From assembly GCF_057098645.1 (NCBI RefSeq), contig NZ_CM169472.1: DNA of 64,000 bases. One strand, given 5' to 3'. Positions within the stretch are counted from its first letter, which is position 1. The number at the start of each line of letters is the position of its first letter. Below the pieces are notes generated by a model. The model saw only the letters and a list, made by a program, of their open reading frames with translations. It did no database searches and was not told the DNA's origin. Shown piece by piece: positions 2,979 to 39,821 of this stretch. The position numbers and the translations under genes were made by a program.

Positions 2979-3002
2979 GTTGTCATTTTCCACCCATATA
3001 AA

Positions 3003-3026
3003 AGGTCCGCTTGCGGGCCTTTTTTC
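3003..3026 (+). terminator. rho-independent terminator after fabF
   Basis: ggtccgcttgcgggcc hairpin followed by TTTTTT. Confidence 0.5.
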
Positions 3027-3097
3027 TTAGCTTTTATTCCGACTTGTTCCGTAGTGAACATGCTGCCACACTAACAATTCTCTGATAAGGAGCCGGT

Positions 3098-3907
3098 ATG
3101 TTCTTAATTAACGGTTATAAGCAGGAATCGCTGGCAGTAAGCGATCGGGCAACGCAGTTTGGTGATGGTTGTTTTACCACCGCCAGAGTTATCGACGGTA
3201 AAGTCAGTTTGTTATCGGCGCATATCCAGCGACTACAGGATGCTTGTCAGCGGTTGATGATTTCCTGTGACTTCTGGCCTCAACTTGAACAAGAGATGAA
3301 AACGCTGGCAGCAGAACAGCAAAATGGTGTACTGAAAGTCGTGATCAGTCGCGGTAGTGGCGGGCGAGGGTACAGCACATTGAACAGTGGACCGGCAACG
3401 CGGATTCTCTCCGTTACGGCTTATCCTGCACATTACGACCGTTTGCGTAACGAAGGGATGACGTTGGCGCTAAGCCCGGTGCGGCTGGGGCGCAATCCTC
3501 ATCTTGCAGGTATTAAACATCTTAATCGGCTTGAGCAAGTATTGATTCGCTCTCATCTTGAGCAGACAAACGCTGATGAGGCGCTGGTCCTTGACAGCGA
3601 AGGGTGGGTTACGGAATGCTGTGCGGCTAATTTGTTCTGGCGGAAGGGCAACGTAGTTTATACGCCGCGACTGGATCAGGCAGGTGTTAACGGCATTATG
3701 CGACAATTCTGTATCCGTTTGCTGGCACAATCCTCTTATCAGCTTGTCGAAGTGCAAGCCTCTCTGGAAGAGGCGTTGCAGGCAGATGAGATGGTTATTT
3801 GTAATGCGTTAATGCCAGTGATGCCCGTACGTGCCTGTGGCGATGTCTCCTTTTCGTCAGCAACGTTATATGAATATTTAGCCCCACTTTGTGAGCGCCC
3901 GAATTAG
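3098..3907 (+). CDS. pabC: aminodeoxychorismate lyase
   Basis: 269-aa ORF matching PabC as recalled; conserved position after fabF. Confidence 0.9.
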
Positions 3908-3909
3908 TC

Positions 3910-4932
3910 ATGAAAAAAGTGTTATTGATAATCTTGTTATTGCTGGTGGTACTGGGTATCGCCGCTGGTGTGGGCATCTGGAAGGTTCGCCATCTTGCCG
4001 ACAGCAAATTGCTTATCAAAGAAGAGACGATATTTACCCTGAAGCCAGGGACCGGACGTCTGGCGCTAGGTGAACAGCTTTATGCCGATAAGATCATCAA
4101 TCGCCCACGGGTTTTTCAATGGTTGCTGCGTATCGAACCGGATCTTTCTCACTTTAAAGCCGGGACTTACCGCTTTACACCGCAGATGACCGTGCGCGAG
4201 ATGCTGAAATTGTTGGAAAGCGGTAAAGAAGCACAGTTCCCGCTGCGACTGGTAGAAGGGATGCGTCTGAGCGACTACCTCAAGCAATTGCGTGAGGCTC
4301 CGTATATCAAGCACACGCTGAGCGACGATAAGTACGCCACCGTAGCGCAGGCACTTGAACTGGAAAACCCGGAGTGGATTGAAGGTTGGTTCTGGCCAGA
4401 CACCTGGATGTATACCGCCAATACCACCGATGTCGCGTTACTCAAGCGAGCGCACAAGAAAATGGTGAAAGCGGTCGATAGCGCCTGGGAAGGGCGTGCG
4501 GACGGTCTGCCTTATAAAGATAAAAATCAGCTGGTGACGATGGCATCAATTATCGAAAAAGAAACCGCCGTTGCCAGTGAACGCGATCAGGTTGCCTCGG
4601 TATTTATCAACCGTTTACGCATTGGTATGCGCCTGCAGACCGACCCAACCGTGATTTACGGGATGGGAGAGCGTTATAATGGCAAACTTTCTCGTGCAGA
4701 CCTGGAAACGCCGACAGCGTATAACACCTATACCATTACCGGTTTGCCGCCGGGTGCGATAGCGACGCCGGGGGCGGATTCGCTGAAGGCTGCTGCGCAT
4801 CCGGCAAAAACGCCGTATCTCTATTTTGTGGCCGATGGTAAAGGTGGTCACACGTTTAATACCAATCTTGCAAGTCATAACAAGTCTGTGCAGGATTATC
4901 TGAAAGTGCTTAAGGAAAAAAATGCGCAGTAA
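3910..4932 (+). CDS. mltG: endolytic murein transglycosylase (YceG family)
   Basis: 340-aa ORF with N-terminal membrane anchor; YceG-like; conserved synteny. Confidence 0.9.
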
Positions 4933-36327: not shown

Positions 36328-36489
36328 CTAGTGAATAACTTTATCGACCGGGTAACAGTTACCGGGAATTTTCTGTTCGGTTGCTGCAGTCATACACTCC
36401 TGCATTGTCCTGTGAACACTGACTGCAATATCAACTGGCTCTCCGGAAACAAGAAAAACTGTCAGAACAAGCGCAAATGCTGAATTCAT
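36328..36489 (-). CDS. ydfD: YdfD-like small protein
   Basis: MNSAFALVLTVFLVSGEPVDIAVSVHRTMQECM... hydrophobic N-terminus; ATG overlaps dicB stop (ATGA), as in Qin. Confidence 0.6.
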   Translation of the reverse strand: MNSAFALVLTVFLVSGEPVDIAVSVHRTMQECMTAATEQKIPGNCYPVDKVIH

Positions 36490-36674
36490 TGTGCACATCC
36501 TTTTGGCATCAGACGTAAACGAGCCAGCATTGAAACAATGCATATTTTATTTAATAGCTCCCGTTCTTGTTTTCTCTTGTTAATGGCATCTTCAGTAAAT
36601 ACAGGGTTACTGATAGTGACACCAATTTCAAAACAACCTTCAGACGTATTAACGTTTGGTAATAACGTTTCCAT
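36486..36674 (-). CDS. dicB: cell-division inhibitor DicB
   Basis: 62-aa product METLLPNVNTSEGCFEIGVTISNPVF...MPKGCAQ, near-identical to Qin DicB as recalled; SD gagga upstream. Confidence 0.8.
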   Translation of the reverse strand: METLLPNVNTSEGCFEIGVTISNPVFTEDAINKRKQERELLNKICIVSMLARLRLMPKGCAQ

Positions 36675-36684
36675 TATCTCGTCC

Positions 36685-37242
36685 TCAACAATGAATTTTT
36701 AGTAATTGCTCCACAGTCATATTTTTAATTGCGCTCCGGTTTACAAGAGTCCAGCCTTGTTTCTCCAGATAAAACTGGAAGGTATCCAGGGTGCAGACCA
36801 TTGCGCCGTCCGGAACGGTTTCAGTGAATTTGATATTGCCGTGTTCGTCGAGACGGATAACCAGGGTACGTCCGTCCCCGTGAATCATTTTGTCGGGAGA
36901 CGGGGCGTTATTCTGGCGCAGTTCTTTCTCCATGCGATCGAACTCAGCGATGTAGGCTTCTTTAAATGCAGCGGCTTTTTTGCCGGTGAAGCCCATCACC
37001 AGGAAAACGAAGCCGTTTTTGGTGATTTGGTACATTGGGAGTTTGCGACCGGTTGAGTCGGTATATTCGCTCGACACAAAATTGTGCTCAGTGAATTTTG
37101 CTGAACAGTCCAGATTGCGAATTTTATCCAACACTCGTTCGTGGCGTTTACCAAAGAACTCAGCGATCGCAATAGACGTAGTGACAGCGCGTCCATTTTC
37201 GATGGTTACGTCAGGGTGAGAAAGGGTATGGATAGTAGCCAT
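36685..37242 (-). CDS. Rha-family phage regulatory protein
   Basis: From ATG at 37242: MATIHTLSHPDVTIENGRAVTTSIAIAEFFGKRHERVLDKIRNL...TKNGFVFLVMGFTGKKAAAFKEAYIAEFDRME (Rha N-domain pattern); frame stays open upstream to 37539 with no convincing start. Confidence 0.7.
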   Translation of the reverse strand: MATIHTLSHPDVTIENGRAVTTSIAIAEFFGKRHERVLDKIRNLDCSAKFTEHNFVSSEYTDSTGRKLPMYQITKNGFVFLVMGFTGKKAAAFKEAYIAEFDRMEKELRQNNAPSPDKMIHGDGRTLVIRLDEHGNIKFTETVPDGAMVCTLDTFQFYLEKQGWTLVNRSAIKNMTVEQLLKIHC

Positions 37243-37717
37243 GATGGCAGCCTCGATAGTCAGTTTAAATAACTCACCACCAAGGCTTTCCACGACCATA
37301 AGGGTGGTGAGACGTACAGGGGTGGAAATACCGGTGACTACCGAAACCGGCCAGCCTTTCGGCTGCCCTGCACGCCCCACCATAATCTGAATGTGGCTGT
37401 GCATTACGCATAAAAAAACCGCATGAGCGCGGTTATGCGCAGTAGTCATCATCGGGTTTCCACGCCCGGCACCCGCTTTATGAGGTGCAGGTGCACTATA
37501 ATTCCACCCGTTCTGGTTTTCAATAGCTACATTCAACATTTTCTCTTACCCTTCATCACCGAAGTGAACTTTGTTGATGCAGTGCCTGGTGCCTCCAGGT
37601 GACGTTAACCAGTTAACAATTAACGCCGGATACAGAGAATCCAACCATAACACTGTTTTTGGTTTTAACTGTTCCGCGTGCGCTTAGCCGCATTCACCGC
37701 ATCACAAAATTCACTTT

Positions 37718-37775
37718 AAAAAGGGCGGCAGAGCAGTCACGGAGTAAAACTGATACCGCCAAACGTCACCAGAAA
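37718..37775 (-). ncRNA. dicF: DicF small RNA
   Basis: Minus strand reads TTTCTGGTGACGTTTGGCGGTATCAGTTTTACTCCGTGACTGCTCTGCCGCCCTTTTT, matching DicF as recalled, with its own terminator hairpin and T-run. Confidence 0.8.
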
Positions 37776-38853: not shown

Positions 38854-39261
38854 TTATTTGTTTGCGCTTCTTTTGCGAGCTTTAAGTAGTTCTTCAAAAA
38901 GTTTGTTGAAATTTTCAACTCGAGCACGCATCTCTGACAACAGAGCCTTTTGCTCTGACTCAGGCAGTGCGTCGAACAGTTGAAGCAACTCTTTTTGATC
39001 TTCTGTCAGATTGACTGGCTGATTATCTGGGATCGGTTCGCCTGGTTGCTTATCTTCATCTCCAAAAAGAAGCCAAGTCGGCGAGCACTGAAGCGCCTGG
39101 CTCAGTGCGAATAATCTCTTCCCCGCTGGCTGTGTTTCATCTCTTTCCCATTGAGAAATTGTTACGTGAGCCACTTTGACCAGCTTACCTAATGCGGCCT
39201 GAGACAGTTTTAATTTTTTTCGCCTGTATAAGAGGCGAGCACCGAAGGTTTCGTTTTTCAT
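38854..39261 (-). CDS. dicA: DicA-like HTH (XRE/cI-type) repressor
   Basis: 135-aa ORF with HTH LSQAALGKLVKVAHVTISQWERDE and C-terminal FNKLFEELLKARKR resembling Qin DicA; divergent from dicC. Confidence 0.85.
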   Translation of the reverse strand: MKNETFGARLLYRRKKLKLSQAALGKLVKVAHVTISQWERDETQPAGKRLFALSQALQCSPTWLLFGDEDKQPGEPIPDNQPVNLTEDQKELLQLFDALPESEQKALLSEMRARVENFNKLFEELLKARKRSANK

Positions 39262-39337: not shown

Positions 39338-39565
39338 ATGTTGAAAATTGATGCTATAGCGTTTTTTGGCAGCAAAACAAAGCTTGCCAATGTCGCAGGA
39401 GTTAGGCTGGCAAGCGTTGCTGCATGGGGGGAACTGGTTCCTGAAGGTCGCGCGATGCGCCTGCAAGAGGCATCCGGCGGGGAACTTCAGTACGACCCCA
39501 AAGTTTATGACGAATATCGTAAGGCAAAGCGGGCGGGGCGGTTGAACAATGAAAATCACCACTGA
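39338..39565 (+). CDS. dicC: DicC-like Cro-type regulator
   Basis: 75-aa ORF MLKIDAIAFFGSKTKLANVAGVRLASVAAWGELVPEGRAMRLQEASGGELQYDP...; divergent from dicA. Confidence 0.85.
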   Translation: MLKIDAIAFFGSKTKLANVAGVRLASVAAWGELVPEGRAMRLQEASGGELQYDPKVYDEYRKAKRAGRLNNENHH

Positions 39566-39821
39566 ACAGGTTTGTGAGGCTCTGGATACCTGGGTATGCC
39601 GACCAGGAATGACACAGGATGCAAAATGGCATCTGAATCGATCGCAGTTTGGCATTCGAATCGATCATGATTTGGCATCCATCTCCGATCACAGTTTGGC
39701 ATCACAATCGATCACGATTTGGCATGCTTCCGATCATTGATTGGCATCCTGCCAGTCACTCCGGGAATTAACTCTTTTCACCACAGTCTCCATTGCCGTG
39801 TTTAAACCAGTGGAGACGTCA

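What the first reader, a model, noticed from the sequence alone, without database searches (positions are those of the whole stretch)
36486..37775. Rha-family gene inserted between dicF and dicB
In the K-12 Qin operon, as recalled, dicB follows DicF by about 190 bp. Here about 1 kb separates them and holds a Rha-family regulatory gene (36685-37242). Its TGA stop lies inside the dicB ribosome-binding site (TGAGGACGAGATAATG), so dicB translation is probably coupled to or occluded by Rha translation. DicF itself appears conserved. This is a rewiring of a known cell-division-inhibitor and sRNA module.
Basis: partly seen in the sequence, partly recalled or inferred. Interest (0 to 1): 0.5.

Follow-up and report, generated by a model that had tools for sequence, protein, structure and literature searches.

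The report
RNA-gated antirepressor cassette upstream of dicB
The extra kilobase between the DicF small RNA and the dicB cell-division inhibitor is a complete phage switch (two small RNAs plus an antirepressor-type Rha gene, built like the immI region of phage P1); it sits at this spot in about 7% of complete E. coli genomes and probably puts DicB under RNA control.

Summary
On the minus strand DicF (37774-37723) and dicB (ATG 36674) are 1048 nt apart, against 174 nt in K-12. A Pfam-confirmed Rha gene (37242-36685) lies between them, and its TGA sits in the dicB Shine-Dalgarno region.

The 873-bp difference from K-12 is a self-contained cassette: a sigma-70 promoter, an IsrK-type sRNA with its own terminator, a C4-type antisense RNA, and target copies a2/b2, with b2 abutting the rha Shine-Dalgarno. 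This is the architecture of P1 immI (c4-icd-ant) and Gifsy-1 isrK-orf45-anrP. The RNA partners are fully complementary and covary across eight variants.

The arrangement is common. The DicF-leader/cassette junction occurs in 399 of 5426 complete E. coli genomes. The cassette is followed by dicB, kilR or ydaE.

The TGAGGA sequence is also in the K-12 dicB leader. K-12 keeps what look like the last rha codons, so Qin probably lost the cassette rather than this prophage gaining it.

Likely mechanism (inferred): C4 hides the rha ribosome site, IsrK relieves it, and Rha translation opens a weak hairpin over the dicB AUG.

Verdict: a new variant of a known kind, of moderate interest.

The parts
37723..37774 (-). 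DicF sRNA gene
   Evidence: Rfam RF00039, 76.7 bits, full model. Identical to K-12 DicF.
37575..37722 (-). Leader downstream of DicF, shared with K-12 Qin. Homology to K-12 ends at ...GGCACTGCATCA.
   Evidence: Alignment with K-12 and four other loci. PGAP's 'partial DicB' here (37653-37570) is an in-frame upstream extension of some DicB annotations, not a second dicB.
37565..37574 (-). Left copy of the junction direct repeat (ACAAAGTTCA; CAAAATTCA in locus L008)
36692..37564 (-). 873-bp segment present here and absent from K-12 Qin (the cassette plus one repeat copy)
   Evidence: Coordinates computed. Alignments.
37495..37523 (-). Sigma-70-type promoter of the IsrK-like sRNA (TTGAAA-17 nt-TATAGT)
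   Evidence: 10 of 12 consensus matches. A promoter of the form TTGAnn-17/18 nt-TAnAnT sits at the same position in all 10 modules compared, including the experimentally defined PisrK of Gifsy-1 (PMC4825925).
37412..37488 (-). IsrK-type sRNA gene carrying determinants a1 (37463-37457, GTGGAAA) and b1 (37448-37440, TGACTACTG), ending in an intrinsic terminator (37434-37417 plus a U run)
   Evidence: Rfam RF01394, 63.6 bits against a gathering score of 50. Terminator of 7 bp followed by T7. a1/b1 coordinates.
37300..37387 (-). C4-type antisense RNA element with loops b' (37343-37335, CGGTAGTCA) and a' (37328-37322, TTTCCAC). It contains the conserved upstream ATG (37383-37381).
   Evidence: Rfam RF01695, 79.3 bits against a gathering score of 45. 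Folds at -49.4 kcal/mol, z = -5.5. Covaries with IsrK.
37251..37293 (-). Second target copy: a2 (37293-37287, GTGGAAA) and b2 (37262-37254, TGACTATCG). b2 runs into the rha Shine-Dalgarno GAGG (37254-37251).
   Evidence: b' pairs with b2 at 9 of 9 positions and a' with a2 at 7 of 7 here. The pairing is complete or within one pair in all eight distinct variants. Own-type pairing exceeds cross-type pairing: 8.62 against 6.70, and 7.0 against 5.2. Same layout as annotated in P1.
36685..37242 (-). rha, short form: 185 aa, Rha/Ant-core N-terminal domain plus an AnrP-like C-terminal domain
   Evidence: Pfam PF09669, E 6.5e-31. phrog_63 'anti-repressor Ant', E 1.8e-20; phrog_2379 (the AnrP family), E 7.6e-9 on residues 100-172. 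Third-codon-position bias 47/42/95. AF2 model with pLDDT 87.
36685..37383 (-). Possible long Rha isoform (232 aa) from the conserved upstream ATG, in frame with rha with no stop between
   Evidence: This ATG is homologous to the first AUG (A107) of Gifsy-1 orf45 (PMC4825925).
36685..37539 (-). 284-aa ORF as called by PGAP ('Rha family phage regulatory protein'). Its first 99 codons cover the promoter, IsrK and C4.
   Evidence: Pfam Phage_ASH matches residues 14-108. That stretch shows no codon periodicity, yet the frame is stop-free in 9 of 9 Rha-type modules.
36692..36700 (-). Right copy of the junction direct repeat (AAAAATTCA), inside the last rha codons
36670..36695 (-). dicB translation-initiation hairpin. 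The 5' arm is the last rha codons, GAGGA lies in the loop, and the dicB AUG lies in the 3' arm.
   Evidence: Predicted 9-bp stem here and a 10-bp stem in K-12. The stem is weak and the local fold z-score is not significant.
36486..36674 (-). dicB (62 aa)
   Evidence: NF049927, E 1.5e-39. phrog_1251. PGAP annotation in strain C325.
36328..36489 (-). ydfD-like DUF1482 gene, overlapping the dicB stop
   Evidence: PGAP annotation of the identical C325 locus. phrog_1092.
38854..39261 (-). DicA-like repressor of this prophage (context; the proposed target of Rha)
   Evidence: 63% identical to K-12 DicA over 131 aa, E 6e-62.

Best explanation
The spacer between DicF and dicB holds a portable immI-type regulatory cassette. 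It sits inside the early-left (dicBF) operon of a Qin-like lambdoid prophage.

Shown:
- The parts follow this order: sigma-70 promoter, IsrK-type sRNA (determinants a1 and b1, own terminator), C4-type RNA (loops b' and a'), second target copy a2/b2 abutting the rha Shine-Dalgarno, Rha-domain gene, and dicB 10 nt after the rha stop.
- The RNA partners are mutually complementary and covary between variants.

Inferred mechanism:
1. Most transcripts from the cassette promoter stop at the IsrK terminator and give the free sRNA.
2. Read-through transcripts, and transcripts entering from the DicA-repressed operon promoter through DicF, carry C4-rha-dicB.
3. The C4 element pairs with a2/b2 and masks the rha ribosome-binding site, as C4 does for icd-ant in P1.
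4. Free IsrK (a1/b1) competes for the C4 loops and switches rha translation on, as IsrK does for orf45-anrP in Gifsy-1.
5. Ribosomes finishing rha melt the weak hairpin that holds the dicB AUG, so DicB is made together with Rha.
6. Rha is expected to act as an antirepressor of the DicA-like repressor. That would derepress the whole ydfABC-dicF-rha-dicB operon in a positive-feedback loop.

K-12 Qin is most likely a deletion derivative that lost the cassette between two 8-10 nt repeats.
For: Parts:
- Rfam matches above the gathering score for DicF, isrK and C4.
- Promoter with 10 of 12 consensus matches, and an intrinsic terminator.
- The promoter is conserved in position in all 10 modules compared, including the experimentally defined Gifsy-1 PisrK (PMC4825925).

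RNA pairing:
- IsrK loop with C4 loop: 99% of cells paired, 6 of 10 pairs with double changes, 0 of 500 shuffles as good, and pairing collapses when the partner is slid.
- RNAalifold independently finds this helix and a second one with many compensatory changes.
- b' pairs with b2 and a' with a2 completely or within one pair in all eight variants, and b2 ends at the SD, 11 nt before the rha ATG.
- The positions reported to pair in Gifsy-1 (G28-C162, G31-C159) map onto the same columns.

Comparison with P1:
- The P1 record annotates the same order: promoters, a1, b1, c4, a2, b2, icd, ant1/ant2.
- C4 represses icd/ant translation, and Icd is a division inhibitor (PMC8198154).

Protein:
- The Rha domain matches phrog_63, which holds P1 Ant1 full length.
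- The C-terminal domain matches the AnrP family phrog_2379.
- AnrP induces Gifsy-1.
- DicA is a Gifsy-type repressor controlled by an antirepressor, Rem (PMC10448788).
- The Rem-like gene in this window is cut by an IS element.

dicB and distribution:
- The same dicB hairpin is predicted here and in K-12.
- The DicF-leader/cassette junction occurs in 399 genomes and the rha/dicB junction in 268, out of 5426.
- The cassette lies upstream of dicB, kilR or ydaE in prophages with different immunity regions.
Against: - No expression data were available for any E. coli copy. Every functional step is by analogy with P1 and Gifsy-1.
- The P1 model (C4 represses) and the Gifsy-1 model (IsrK activates through orf45) have not been reconciled experimentally. 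My merged model is an inference.
- Here the orf45-equivalent ATG is fused in frame to rha, so the Gifsy-1 coupling step cannot work in the same way.
- dicB has its own good SD (GAGGA, 7 nt spacing), identical to that of K-12. The hairpin is weak (9 bp with 3 G-U pairs, z about 0), so DicB translation may not depend on Rha.
- In kilR-linked cassettes the rha stop is 45 nt from the next start, so coupling is not a general feature.
- The target of Rha is unknown. BLASTP finds no direct similarity to P1 Ant1, and only E 0.005 to AnrP.
- No operator-like sequence is shared between the cassette promoter and the immunity region.
Confidence: 0.6

Rival explanations
1. A lone Rha-family regulatory gene was inserted between dicF and dicB. 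The main consequence is that dicB translation is coupled to, or occluded by, rha translation because the rha stop lies in the dicB RBS.
For: - The Rha domain is confirmed.
- The stop codon lies in the dicB initiation region, and the last rha codons form the 5' arm of the dicB AUG hairpin.
Against: - The TGAGGACG context is native to the K-12 dicB leader, which has no rha.
- The segment also carries a promoter, a terminator and two Rfam-supported RNA genes with covarying complementarity.
- The direction is more likely a loss in K-12.
- The arrangement is widespread.
Confidence: 0.15
2. The true product is the 284-aa 'Ash-Rha' fusion protein as annotated by PGAP. The isrK and C4 matches would then be incidental features of a coding region.
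For: - The rha frame has no stop over the 82 codons from IsrK +1 to the rha ATG in 9 of 9 Rha-type modules, while the other frames have 0-10 stops.
- In PhiR63_1 and Stx1_699 the frame stays open a further 100-120 codons upstream.
- Pfam Phage_ASH matches residues 14-108, E 5e-19.
- ATG 37539 has a plausible SD (GAAGGG).
Against: - The leader shows no codon periodicity (14/12/9, 7/8/7, 14/15/15 and 10/12/12 variable columns by codon position), against 47/42/95 in rha.
- The amino-acid sequence of the extension is unrecognisably different between RNA types, for example P0010.
- Compensatory changes preserve RNA pairings.
- A promoter and a U7 intrinsic terminator lie inside the 'ORF'.
- In Gifsy-1 the equivalent region is experimentally an sRNA plus a 45-codon uORF.
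Confidence: 0.1
3. The cassette is inert cargo in a decaying prophage. dicB is expressed as in K-12, from the DicA-repressed promoter with its own SD, and neither Rha nor the RNAs affect it.
For: - The dicB SD and spacing are the same as in K-12, and the hairpin is weak.
- The prophage carries IS insertions.
- The cassette also occurs where no dicB follows.
Against: - All RNA determinants are intact and mutually matched (9/9 and 7/7 pairs), and the ORF is intact with purifying selection on rha.
- The cassette terminator now lies between DicF and dicB, and a new promoter lies upstream of dicB, so at least the transcriptional input to dicB must differ.
- The rha-dicB junction is conserved across lineages whose dicB genes have diverged.
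Confidence: 0.15

Closest known systems
Phage P1/P7 immI operon (c4-icd-ant1/ant2)
   Same: - Same order of elements: sigma-70 promoter, a1, b1 with a terminator-like hairpin, C4 RNA (the same conserved 5' AATTATGGTGGGGCG), a2, then b2 running into the SD of the first gene about 10 nt before its ATG.
- The operon encodes an Ant-type protein. The Rha domain here matches phrog_63, the family of P1 Ant1.
- The operon also encodes a small cell-division inhibitor.
- Two in-frame starts are possible for the antirepressor: 232 and 185 aa here, Ant1 and Ant2 in P1.
   Different: - The gene behind b2 is the antirepressor itself, not icd.
- The division inhibitor is DicB, which lies downstream of the antirepressor instead of upstream. 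No Icd-family model matched the 47-aa leader peptide; DicB was not compared directly with Icd.
- There is no direct BLASTP similarity between Rha and Ant1.
- No repressor operator was detected at the promoter, whereas P1 has Op51.
- The host element is a lambdoid prophage, not a P1 plasmid prophage.
Salmonella Gifsy-1 isrK-orf45-anrP locus (Hershko-Shalev et al. 2016, PMC4825925)
   Same: - The leader is homologous nucleotide for nucleotide: promoter position, IsrK, terminator, the conserved uORF ATG, the C4-like STnc1160 region, GGTGGTGA, and the SD plus ATG of the effector gene.
- The base pairs shown experimentally (G28-C162, G31-C159) fall in the covarying helix.
- The effector has an AnrP-like C-terminal domain.
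   Different: - Gifsy-1 has a separate 45-codon uORF ending on the anrP start. Here the same ATG is in frame with rha, with no stop.
- The N-terminal domain is Rha-type rather than AnrP-type. Both match phrog_373 and phrog_63.
- The Gifsy-1 locus lies after the late antiterminator Q and before isrJ. This one lies in the early-left operon between DicF and dicB.
E. coli K-12 Qin dicBF operon (ydfABC-dicF-dicB-ydfD under DicA/DicC)
   Same: - Same gene order and flanks.
- DicF is identical, and so is the leader up to GCATCA.
- The dicB SD and hairpin are the same.
- The repressor is DicA-like, 63% identical.
   Different: - An extra 873 bp carries a promoter, a terminator, two RNA genes and rha between DicF and dicB.
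- Qin's antirepressor Rem (PMC10448788) is represented here only by a 28-aa fragment cut by an IS element.
Satellite phage P4 immunity (CI RNA with seqA/seqB/seqC)
   Same: - A processed antisense RNA with complementary copies upstream and downstream. The IsrK paper calls IsrK a structural homologue of seqA.
- The Pfam 'Ash' family, which I recall is named after P4 ash, matches the translation of this RNA region.
   Different: - P4 CI acts by transcription termination, with no antirepressor gene.
- This comparison was not examined here beyond the literature statement.

Membership tests
Rha family (Pfam PF09669 / TIGR02681) | Phage_pRha domain scoring above the family threshold | tested here: met
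   PF09669, E 6.5e-31, model positions 1-91 of 91. TIGR02681, 108 bits against a cutoff of 45.95.
Gifsy-1 isrK-orf45-anrP module | IsrK sRNA gene with its own sigma-70 promoter and intrinsic terminator | tested here: met
   RF01394, 63.6 bits against 50. TTGAAA-17 nt-TATAGT promoter and a 7-bp stem followed by T7. Promoter position conserved across 10 modules.
Gifsy-1 isrK-orf45-anrP module | Downstream structured region (STnc1160/C4-like) complementary to IsrK | tested here: met
   RF01695, 79.3 bits. Covariation: 99% of cells paired, 0 of 500 shuffles as good. RNAalifold agrees.
Gifsy-1 isrK-orf45-anrP module | Separate upstream ORF (orf45) whose stop overlaps the antirepressor start, giving translational coupling | tested here: not met
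   The homologous ATG (37383) is in frame with rha and no stop intervenes. The same holds in 9 of 9 Rha-type modules.
Gifsy-1 isrK-orf45-anrP module | Effector protein homologous to AnrP | tested here: inconclusive
   Only the C-terminal domain is similar: BLASTP E 0.005 and phrog_2379 E 7.6e-9. The N-terminal domains differ, but both match phrog_373 and phrog_63.
Gifsy-1 isrK-orf45-anrP module | Location downstream of the late antiterminator Q gene | tested here: not met
   Here the cassette lies in the early-left operon between DicF and dicB. In Gifsy-1 it lies between STM2617 (Q) and STM2616.
Gifsy-1 isrK-orf45-anrP module | IsrK activates effector translation in trans, and the effector induces the prophage | not testable with these tools
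   Needs reporter fusions and induction assays.
P1/P7 immI (c4-icd-ant) | Order promoter, a1, b1, C4 (a', b'), a2, b2, with b2 at the RBS of the first gene | tested here: met
   Coordinates. Pairing matrices. P1 annotation and sequence.
P1/P7 immI (c4-icd-ant) | The first gene is icd, a division inhibitor whose translation is required for ant | tested here: not met
   The first gene is rha. The 47-aa in-frame leader matches no NCBIfam family. The division inhibitor here, DicB, lies downstream.
P1/P7 immI (c4-icd-ant) | Ant-family antirepressor | tested here: inconclusive
   The Rha domain matches phrog_63 (E 1.8e-20), which P1 Ant1 matches full length (E 2.8e-103). Pairwise BLASTP is not significant.
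P1/P7 immI (c4-icd-ant) | Operon promoter controlled by the primary repressor (Op51 in P1) | tested here: inconclusive
   No word of 9 nt or longer, and no palindrome, is shared between the promoter region and the dicA/cro-like intergenic region. The operators of this repressor are not known.
Qin-type dicBF operon | ydfA-ydfB-ydfC-dicF-dicB-ydfD transcribed away from a DicA-like repressor gene | tested here: met
   PGAP annotation of the identical C325 locus, compared with K-12. DicA-like protein 63% identical.
Qin-type dicBF operon | dicB follows DicF after a ~170-nt untranslated leader | tested here: not met
   1048 nt here against 174 nt in K-12. The 873-bp cassette intervenes.

The most novel reading that the evidence does not exclude
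The cassette may act as a specificity-coded RNA lock on a cell-division inhibitor.

- The a and b determinants come in at least five and seven versions, respectively, and they reassort. An IsrK made by one prophage could therefore unlock Rha plus DicB (or KilR) in another prophage of matching type. That would couple antirepression and division arrest across the several such modules that many E. coli strains carry.
- The rha reading frame is kept free of stops through both RNA genes, although it is not conserved as protein. Ribosomes starting upstream (ATG 37539, present only on transcripts read in from the DicA-repressed promoter) could then translate straight through and override the lock once the operon is derepressed.
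Probability: 0.2. Interest if true: 0.6.

Novelty: new variant of a known kind. Interest (0 to 1): 0.4.

Why it matters
DicF and DicB are textbook prophage-encoded division inhibitors. The natural signal that induces their operon is still unknown (PMC5069750, PMC10448788), and all of that work uses K-12, which lacks this cassette.

In about 7% of complete E. coli genomes, including STEC strains, dicB (or kilR) sits directly behind an IsrK/C4-controlled antirepressor-type gene. If the model holds, three things follow in those strains:
- DicB and KilR production responds to an sRNA switch. In Salmonella that switch answers to stationary phase, low Mg2+ and oxidative stress.
- The antirepressor could feed back on the DicA-like repressor.
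- The P1 immI design (RNA-gated antirepressor plus division inhibitor) would be shown to recur in lambdoid prophages with unrelated inhibitor proteins.

There are also two annotation points. The 284-aa 'Rha' call and the Pfam 'Ash' family largely translate RNA genes. The K-12 dicB leader probably carries a scar of a lost rha gene.

Tried and rejected
1. The 45-aa ORF at 37411-37274 looked like 'orf45'. It starts in the terminator tail and is in a different frame from the conserved orf45 ATG, so the matching length is a coincidence.
2. PGAP's 'partial DicB' upstream of the cassette (37653-37570) suggested a duplicated dicB 5' end. It is only the in-frame upstream extension that some DicB annotations include.
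3. I searched for a repressor operator shared between the cassette promoter and the immunity intergenic region. Nothing of 9 nt or longer was found.
4. A PDB sequence search with Rha found no match.
5. BLASTP of Rha against P1 Ant1 was not significant.
7. The direction of the indel cannot be settled from junctions alone. I lean towards deletion in Qin but could not build a phylogeny.
8. The Melson & Kendall 2019 paper on the EHEC dicF copies is not held.
9. Full-text searches for dicF+dicB+Rha, isrK+dicF and 'dicBF' found no description of this arrangement.
Full report
**Observation**

All features lie on the minus strand. Rfam places DicF at 37774-37723 (76.7 bits), and its sequence is identical to K-12 DicF. 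dicB starts at 36674 (62 aa; NCBIfam CellDivInhibDicB, E 1.5e-39).

The gap between DicF and dicB is 1048 nt, against 174 nt in MG1655. The ORF 37242-36685 carries a full Phage_pRha domain (E 6.5e-31) and passes TIGR02681. Its TGA is followed by GGACGAGATA and then the dicB ATG.

The same Rfam scan finds two more RNA genes in the spacer: an IsrK-type sRNA (37488-37412, 63.6 bits) and a C4-type antisense RNA (37387-37300, 79.3 bits).

A TTGAAA-17 nt-TATAGT promoter ends 7 nt upstream of the IsrK start. A 7-bp stem followed by a U7 run, forming an intrinsic terminator, closes IsrK. The C4 element folds far better than shuffled controls (z = -5.5).

PGAP merges all of this into a 284-aa 'Rha family' ORF. 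Its first 99 codons cover the promoter and both RNAs.

**Homology of the leader**

The stretch from the promoter to the rha start aligns base for base with the Gifsy-1 isrK-orf45-anrP leader and with modules in Stx phages and PhiR63_1. Using the numbering of Hershko-Shalev et al., A107, C18, G28, G31, C159, C162 and G173 all fall where the paper puts them.

The P1 record annotates the same order of parts: promoters, a1, b1, c4, a2, b2, icd, ant1/ant2. The P1 sequence shows the same AATTATGGTGGGGCG start of C4 and a terminator-like hairpin after b1.

**RNA complementarity**

In the window, the matching determinants are:
- IsrK a1 (GTGGAAA) and a2 (GTGGAAA), both complementary to the C4 loop a' (TTTCCAC).
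- IsrK b1 (TGACTACTG) and b2 (TGACTATCG), both complementary to the C4 loop b' (CGGTAGTCA).

b2 runs into the rha SD (GAGG), 11 nt before the ATG.

Across ten modules (eight distinct), the IsrK-loop/C4-loop helix is 99% paired. Six of its ten pairs show double changes, no shuffle out of 500 does as well, and pairing collapses when the partner is slid. RNAalifold finds this helix and the b helix on its own.

Own-type pairing exceeds cross-type pairing for all four interactions. The a and b determinants also reassort between variants. The RNA machinery is therefore intact and co-adapted here.

**The protein**

- The Rha N-terminal domain matches phrog_63 (E 1.8e-20), the family that P1 Ant1 matches full length.
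- The C-terminal 70 residues match the AnrP family phrog_2379 (E 7.6e-9) and align weakly with AnrP itself.
- The Rha domain is very widespread, with 10,228 cluster representatives at E ≤ 0.001.
- Third-position bias (47/42/95 variable columns by codon position) shows that rha is under coding selection.

**Where translation starts**

The ATG homologous to the first AUG of Gifsy-1 orf45 (37383) is in frame with rha, with no stop between them. This holds in 9 of 9 Rha-type modules, whereas in Gifsy-1 it heads a separate 45-codon ORF. A 232-aa isoform and a 185-aa isoform are therefore both possible, which recalls Ant1 and Ant2 of P1.

The leader shows no codon periodicity, so it evolves as RNA. 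Even so, the rha frame has no stop through the whole leader in every Rha-type module. I cannot explain this. It may let ribosomes that start upstream run through the RNA lock.

Pfam Phage_ASH matches exactly this RNA region.

**Relation to K-12**

The window and K-12 are collinear up to GCATCA and again from AAAATTCATTGTTGAGGACG. The 873 bp between those points are flanked by an 8-10 nt direct repeat, (C/A)AAA(A/G)TTCA. The TGA-in-RBS context is therefore also present in K-12.

Rha C-termini in diverged cassettes read KIHC, NIH, SIK, SLK and NIK. Their DNA is homologous to the K-12 leader word. The DicF-leader/cassette junction is the same whether dicB, kilR or ydaE follows. The rha-dicB junction has itself diverged together with a diverged dicB.

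I read this as an old arrangement that Qin lost by deletion between the repeats. I put this at about two to one, not proven.

**Distribution**

Out of 5426 complete E. coli genomes:

| Feature matched | Genomes |
|---|---|
| At least 80% of the dicF-to-dicB span | 270 |
| At least 80% of the cassette | 397 |
| DicF-leader/cassette junction | 399 |
| rha/dicB junction | 268 |

One Rha variant is on record on more than 1000 contigs. IsrK/C4 leaders in some context occur in about half of the genomes.

[quoted passage not shown] Weinberg et al. listed both the c4 and c4-a1b1 motifs. No held paper describes the cassette inside the dicBF operon.

**Effect on dicB**

Three consequences follow directly from the sequence:
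- A second intrinsic terminator now lies between DicF and dicB.
- A promoter not obviously tied to DicA lies upstream of dicB.
- rha ends 10 nt before dicB.

Both here and in K-12, the dicB AUG is predicted to sit in a short hairpin. Its 5' arm is the AUUCAUUGUU word, which here encodes the last rha residues. The hairpin is weak, and dicB keeps its own SD. Coupling is therefore plausible but not required.

**Model and context**

DicA is a Gifsy-type repressor that is relieved by an antirepressor, Rem, in K-12. The repressor in this window is 63% identical to DicA, and the Rem-like gene in the window is cut by an IS3-family element. AnrP induces Gifsy-1.

I therefore propose the following sequence of events:
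1. C4 masks the rha RBS.
2. IsrK relieves the block.
3. Rha antagonises the DicA-like repressor.
4. DicB is co-produced with Rha.

All four steps are inferred. The result would be a lambdoid counterpart of P1 c4-icd-ant, with the order of antirepressor and division inhibitor swapped.

**Verdict**

The finding is real but common. The 'rewiring' is a known kind of RNA-gated antirepressor cassette in a position and wiring that have not been described. It is a new variant of a known kind, of moderate interest.

Noticed in passing
window 37216-37500 (-): Pfam Phage_ASH (PF10554, 'Ash protein family') matches residues 14-108 of the 284-aa ORF, which is exactly the IsrK and C4 RNA genes. The stretch shows no codon periodicity. 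PGAP also labels such stretches 'ash family protein' in other genomes. The family looks like a translation of conserved RNA genes.
   Followed up: partly
window 37242-37488 (-) and loci L003-L005, L007, L008, L010, L014, L018: The rha reading frame has no stop codon through the whole IsrK/C4 leader in 9 of 9 Rha-type modules, while the other frames have 0-10 stops. In PhiR63_1 and Stx1_699 it stays open for 100-120 further codons upstream. It is open but not conserved as protein.
   Followed up: partly
window 47068-47151 (+) and 47167-48380 (-): A 28-aa N-terminal fragment of a Rem-like antirepressor (57% identical to K-12 Rem, E 3.7e-5) is cut off by an IS3-family element: orfA, orfB and an ALIL frameshift pseudoknot at 47983-48099.
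   Followed up: partly
window 39741-41387 (+): An IS21-family istA-like transposase (548 aa) lies directly after the cro-like gene (39338-39565). The otherwise identical C325 locus has ydaT, dnaT-like and P genes there instead.
   Followed up: no
window 49365-49616: STnc100 (49365-49554, +) lies immediately next to AgvB, the anti-GcvB sponge sRNA (49555-49616, -). A hok/sok locus lies at 46497-46820.
   Followed up: no
loci L014-L017 (about 3001-4119) and L008 (2722-3868): In other lambdoid prophages the same DicF-linked cassette is followed by kilR, the Rac-type division inhibitor, 45 nt after the rha stop. In L008 it is followed by a ydaE-family gene instead of dicB.
   Followed up: partly
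NZ_CP007133.1 (O145:H28 RM12761) 1393629-1395922: Both cassette junctions are 100% identical to the window, but they lie about 1.3 kb further apart than here. 'ash family protein' and 'Rha' are annotated separately. This suggests an insertion inside the cassette in that strain.
   Followed up: no
window 37546-37653 (-): A 35-codon GTG ORF (MLWLDSLYPALIVNWL...) downstream of DicF ends at a TAA 6 nt before ATG 37539. In K-12 the same frame runs into dicB, and in L010-type loci it runs into the long Rha ORF (320-aa P0053).
   Followed up: no
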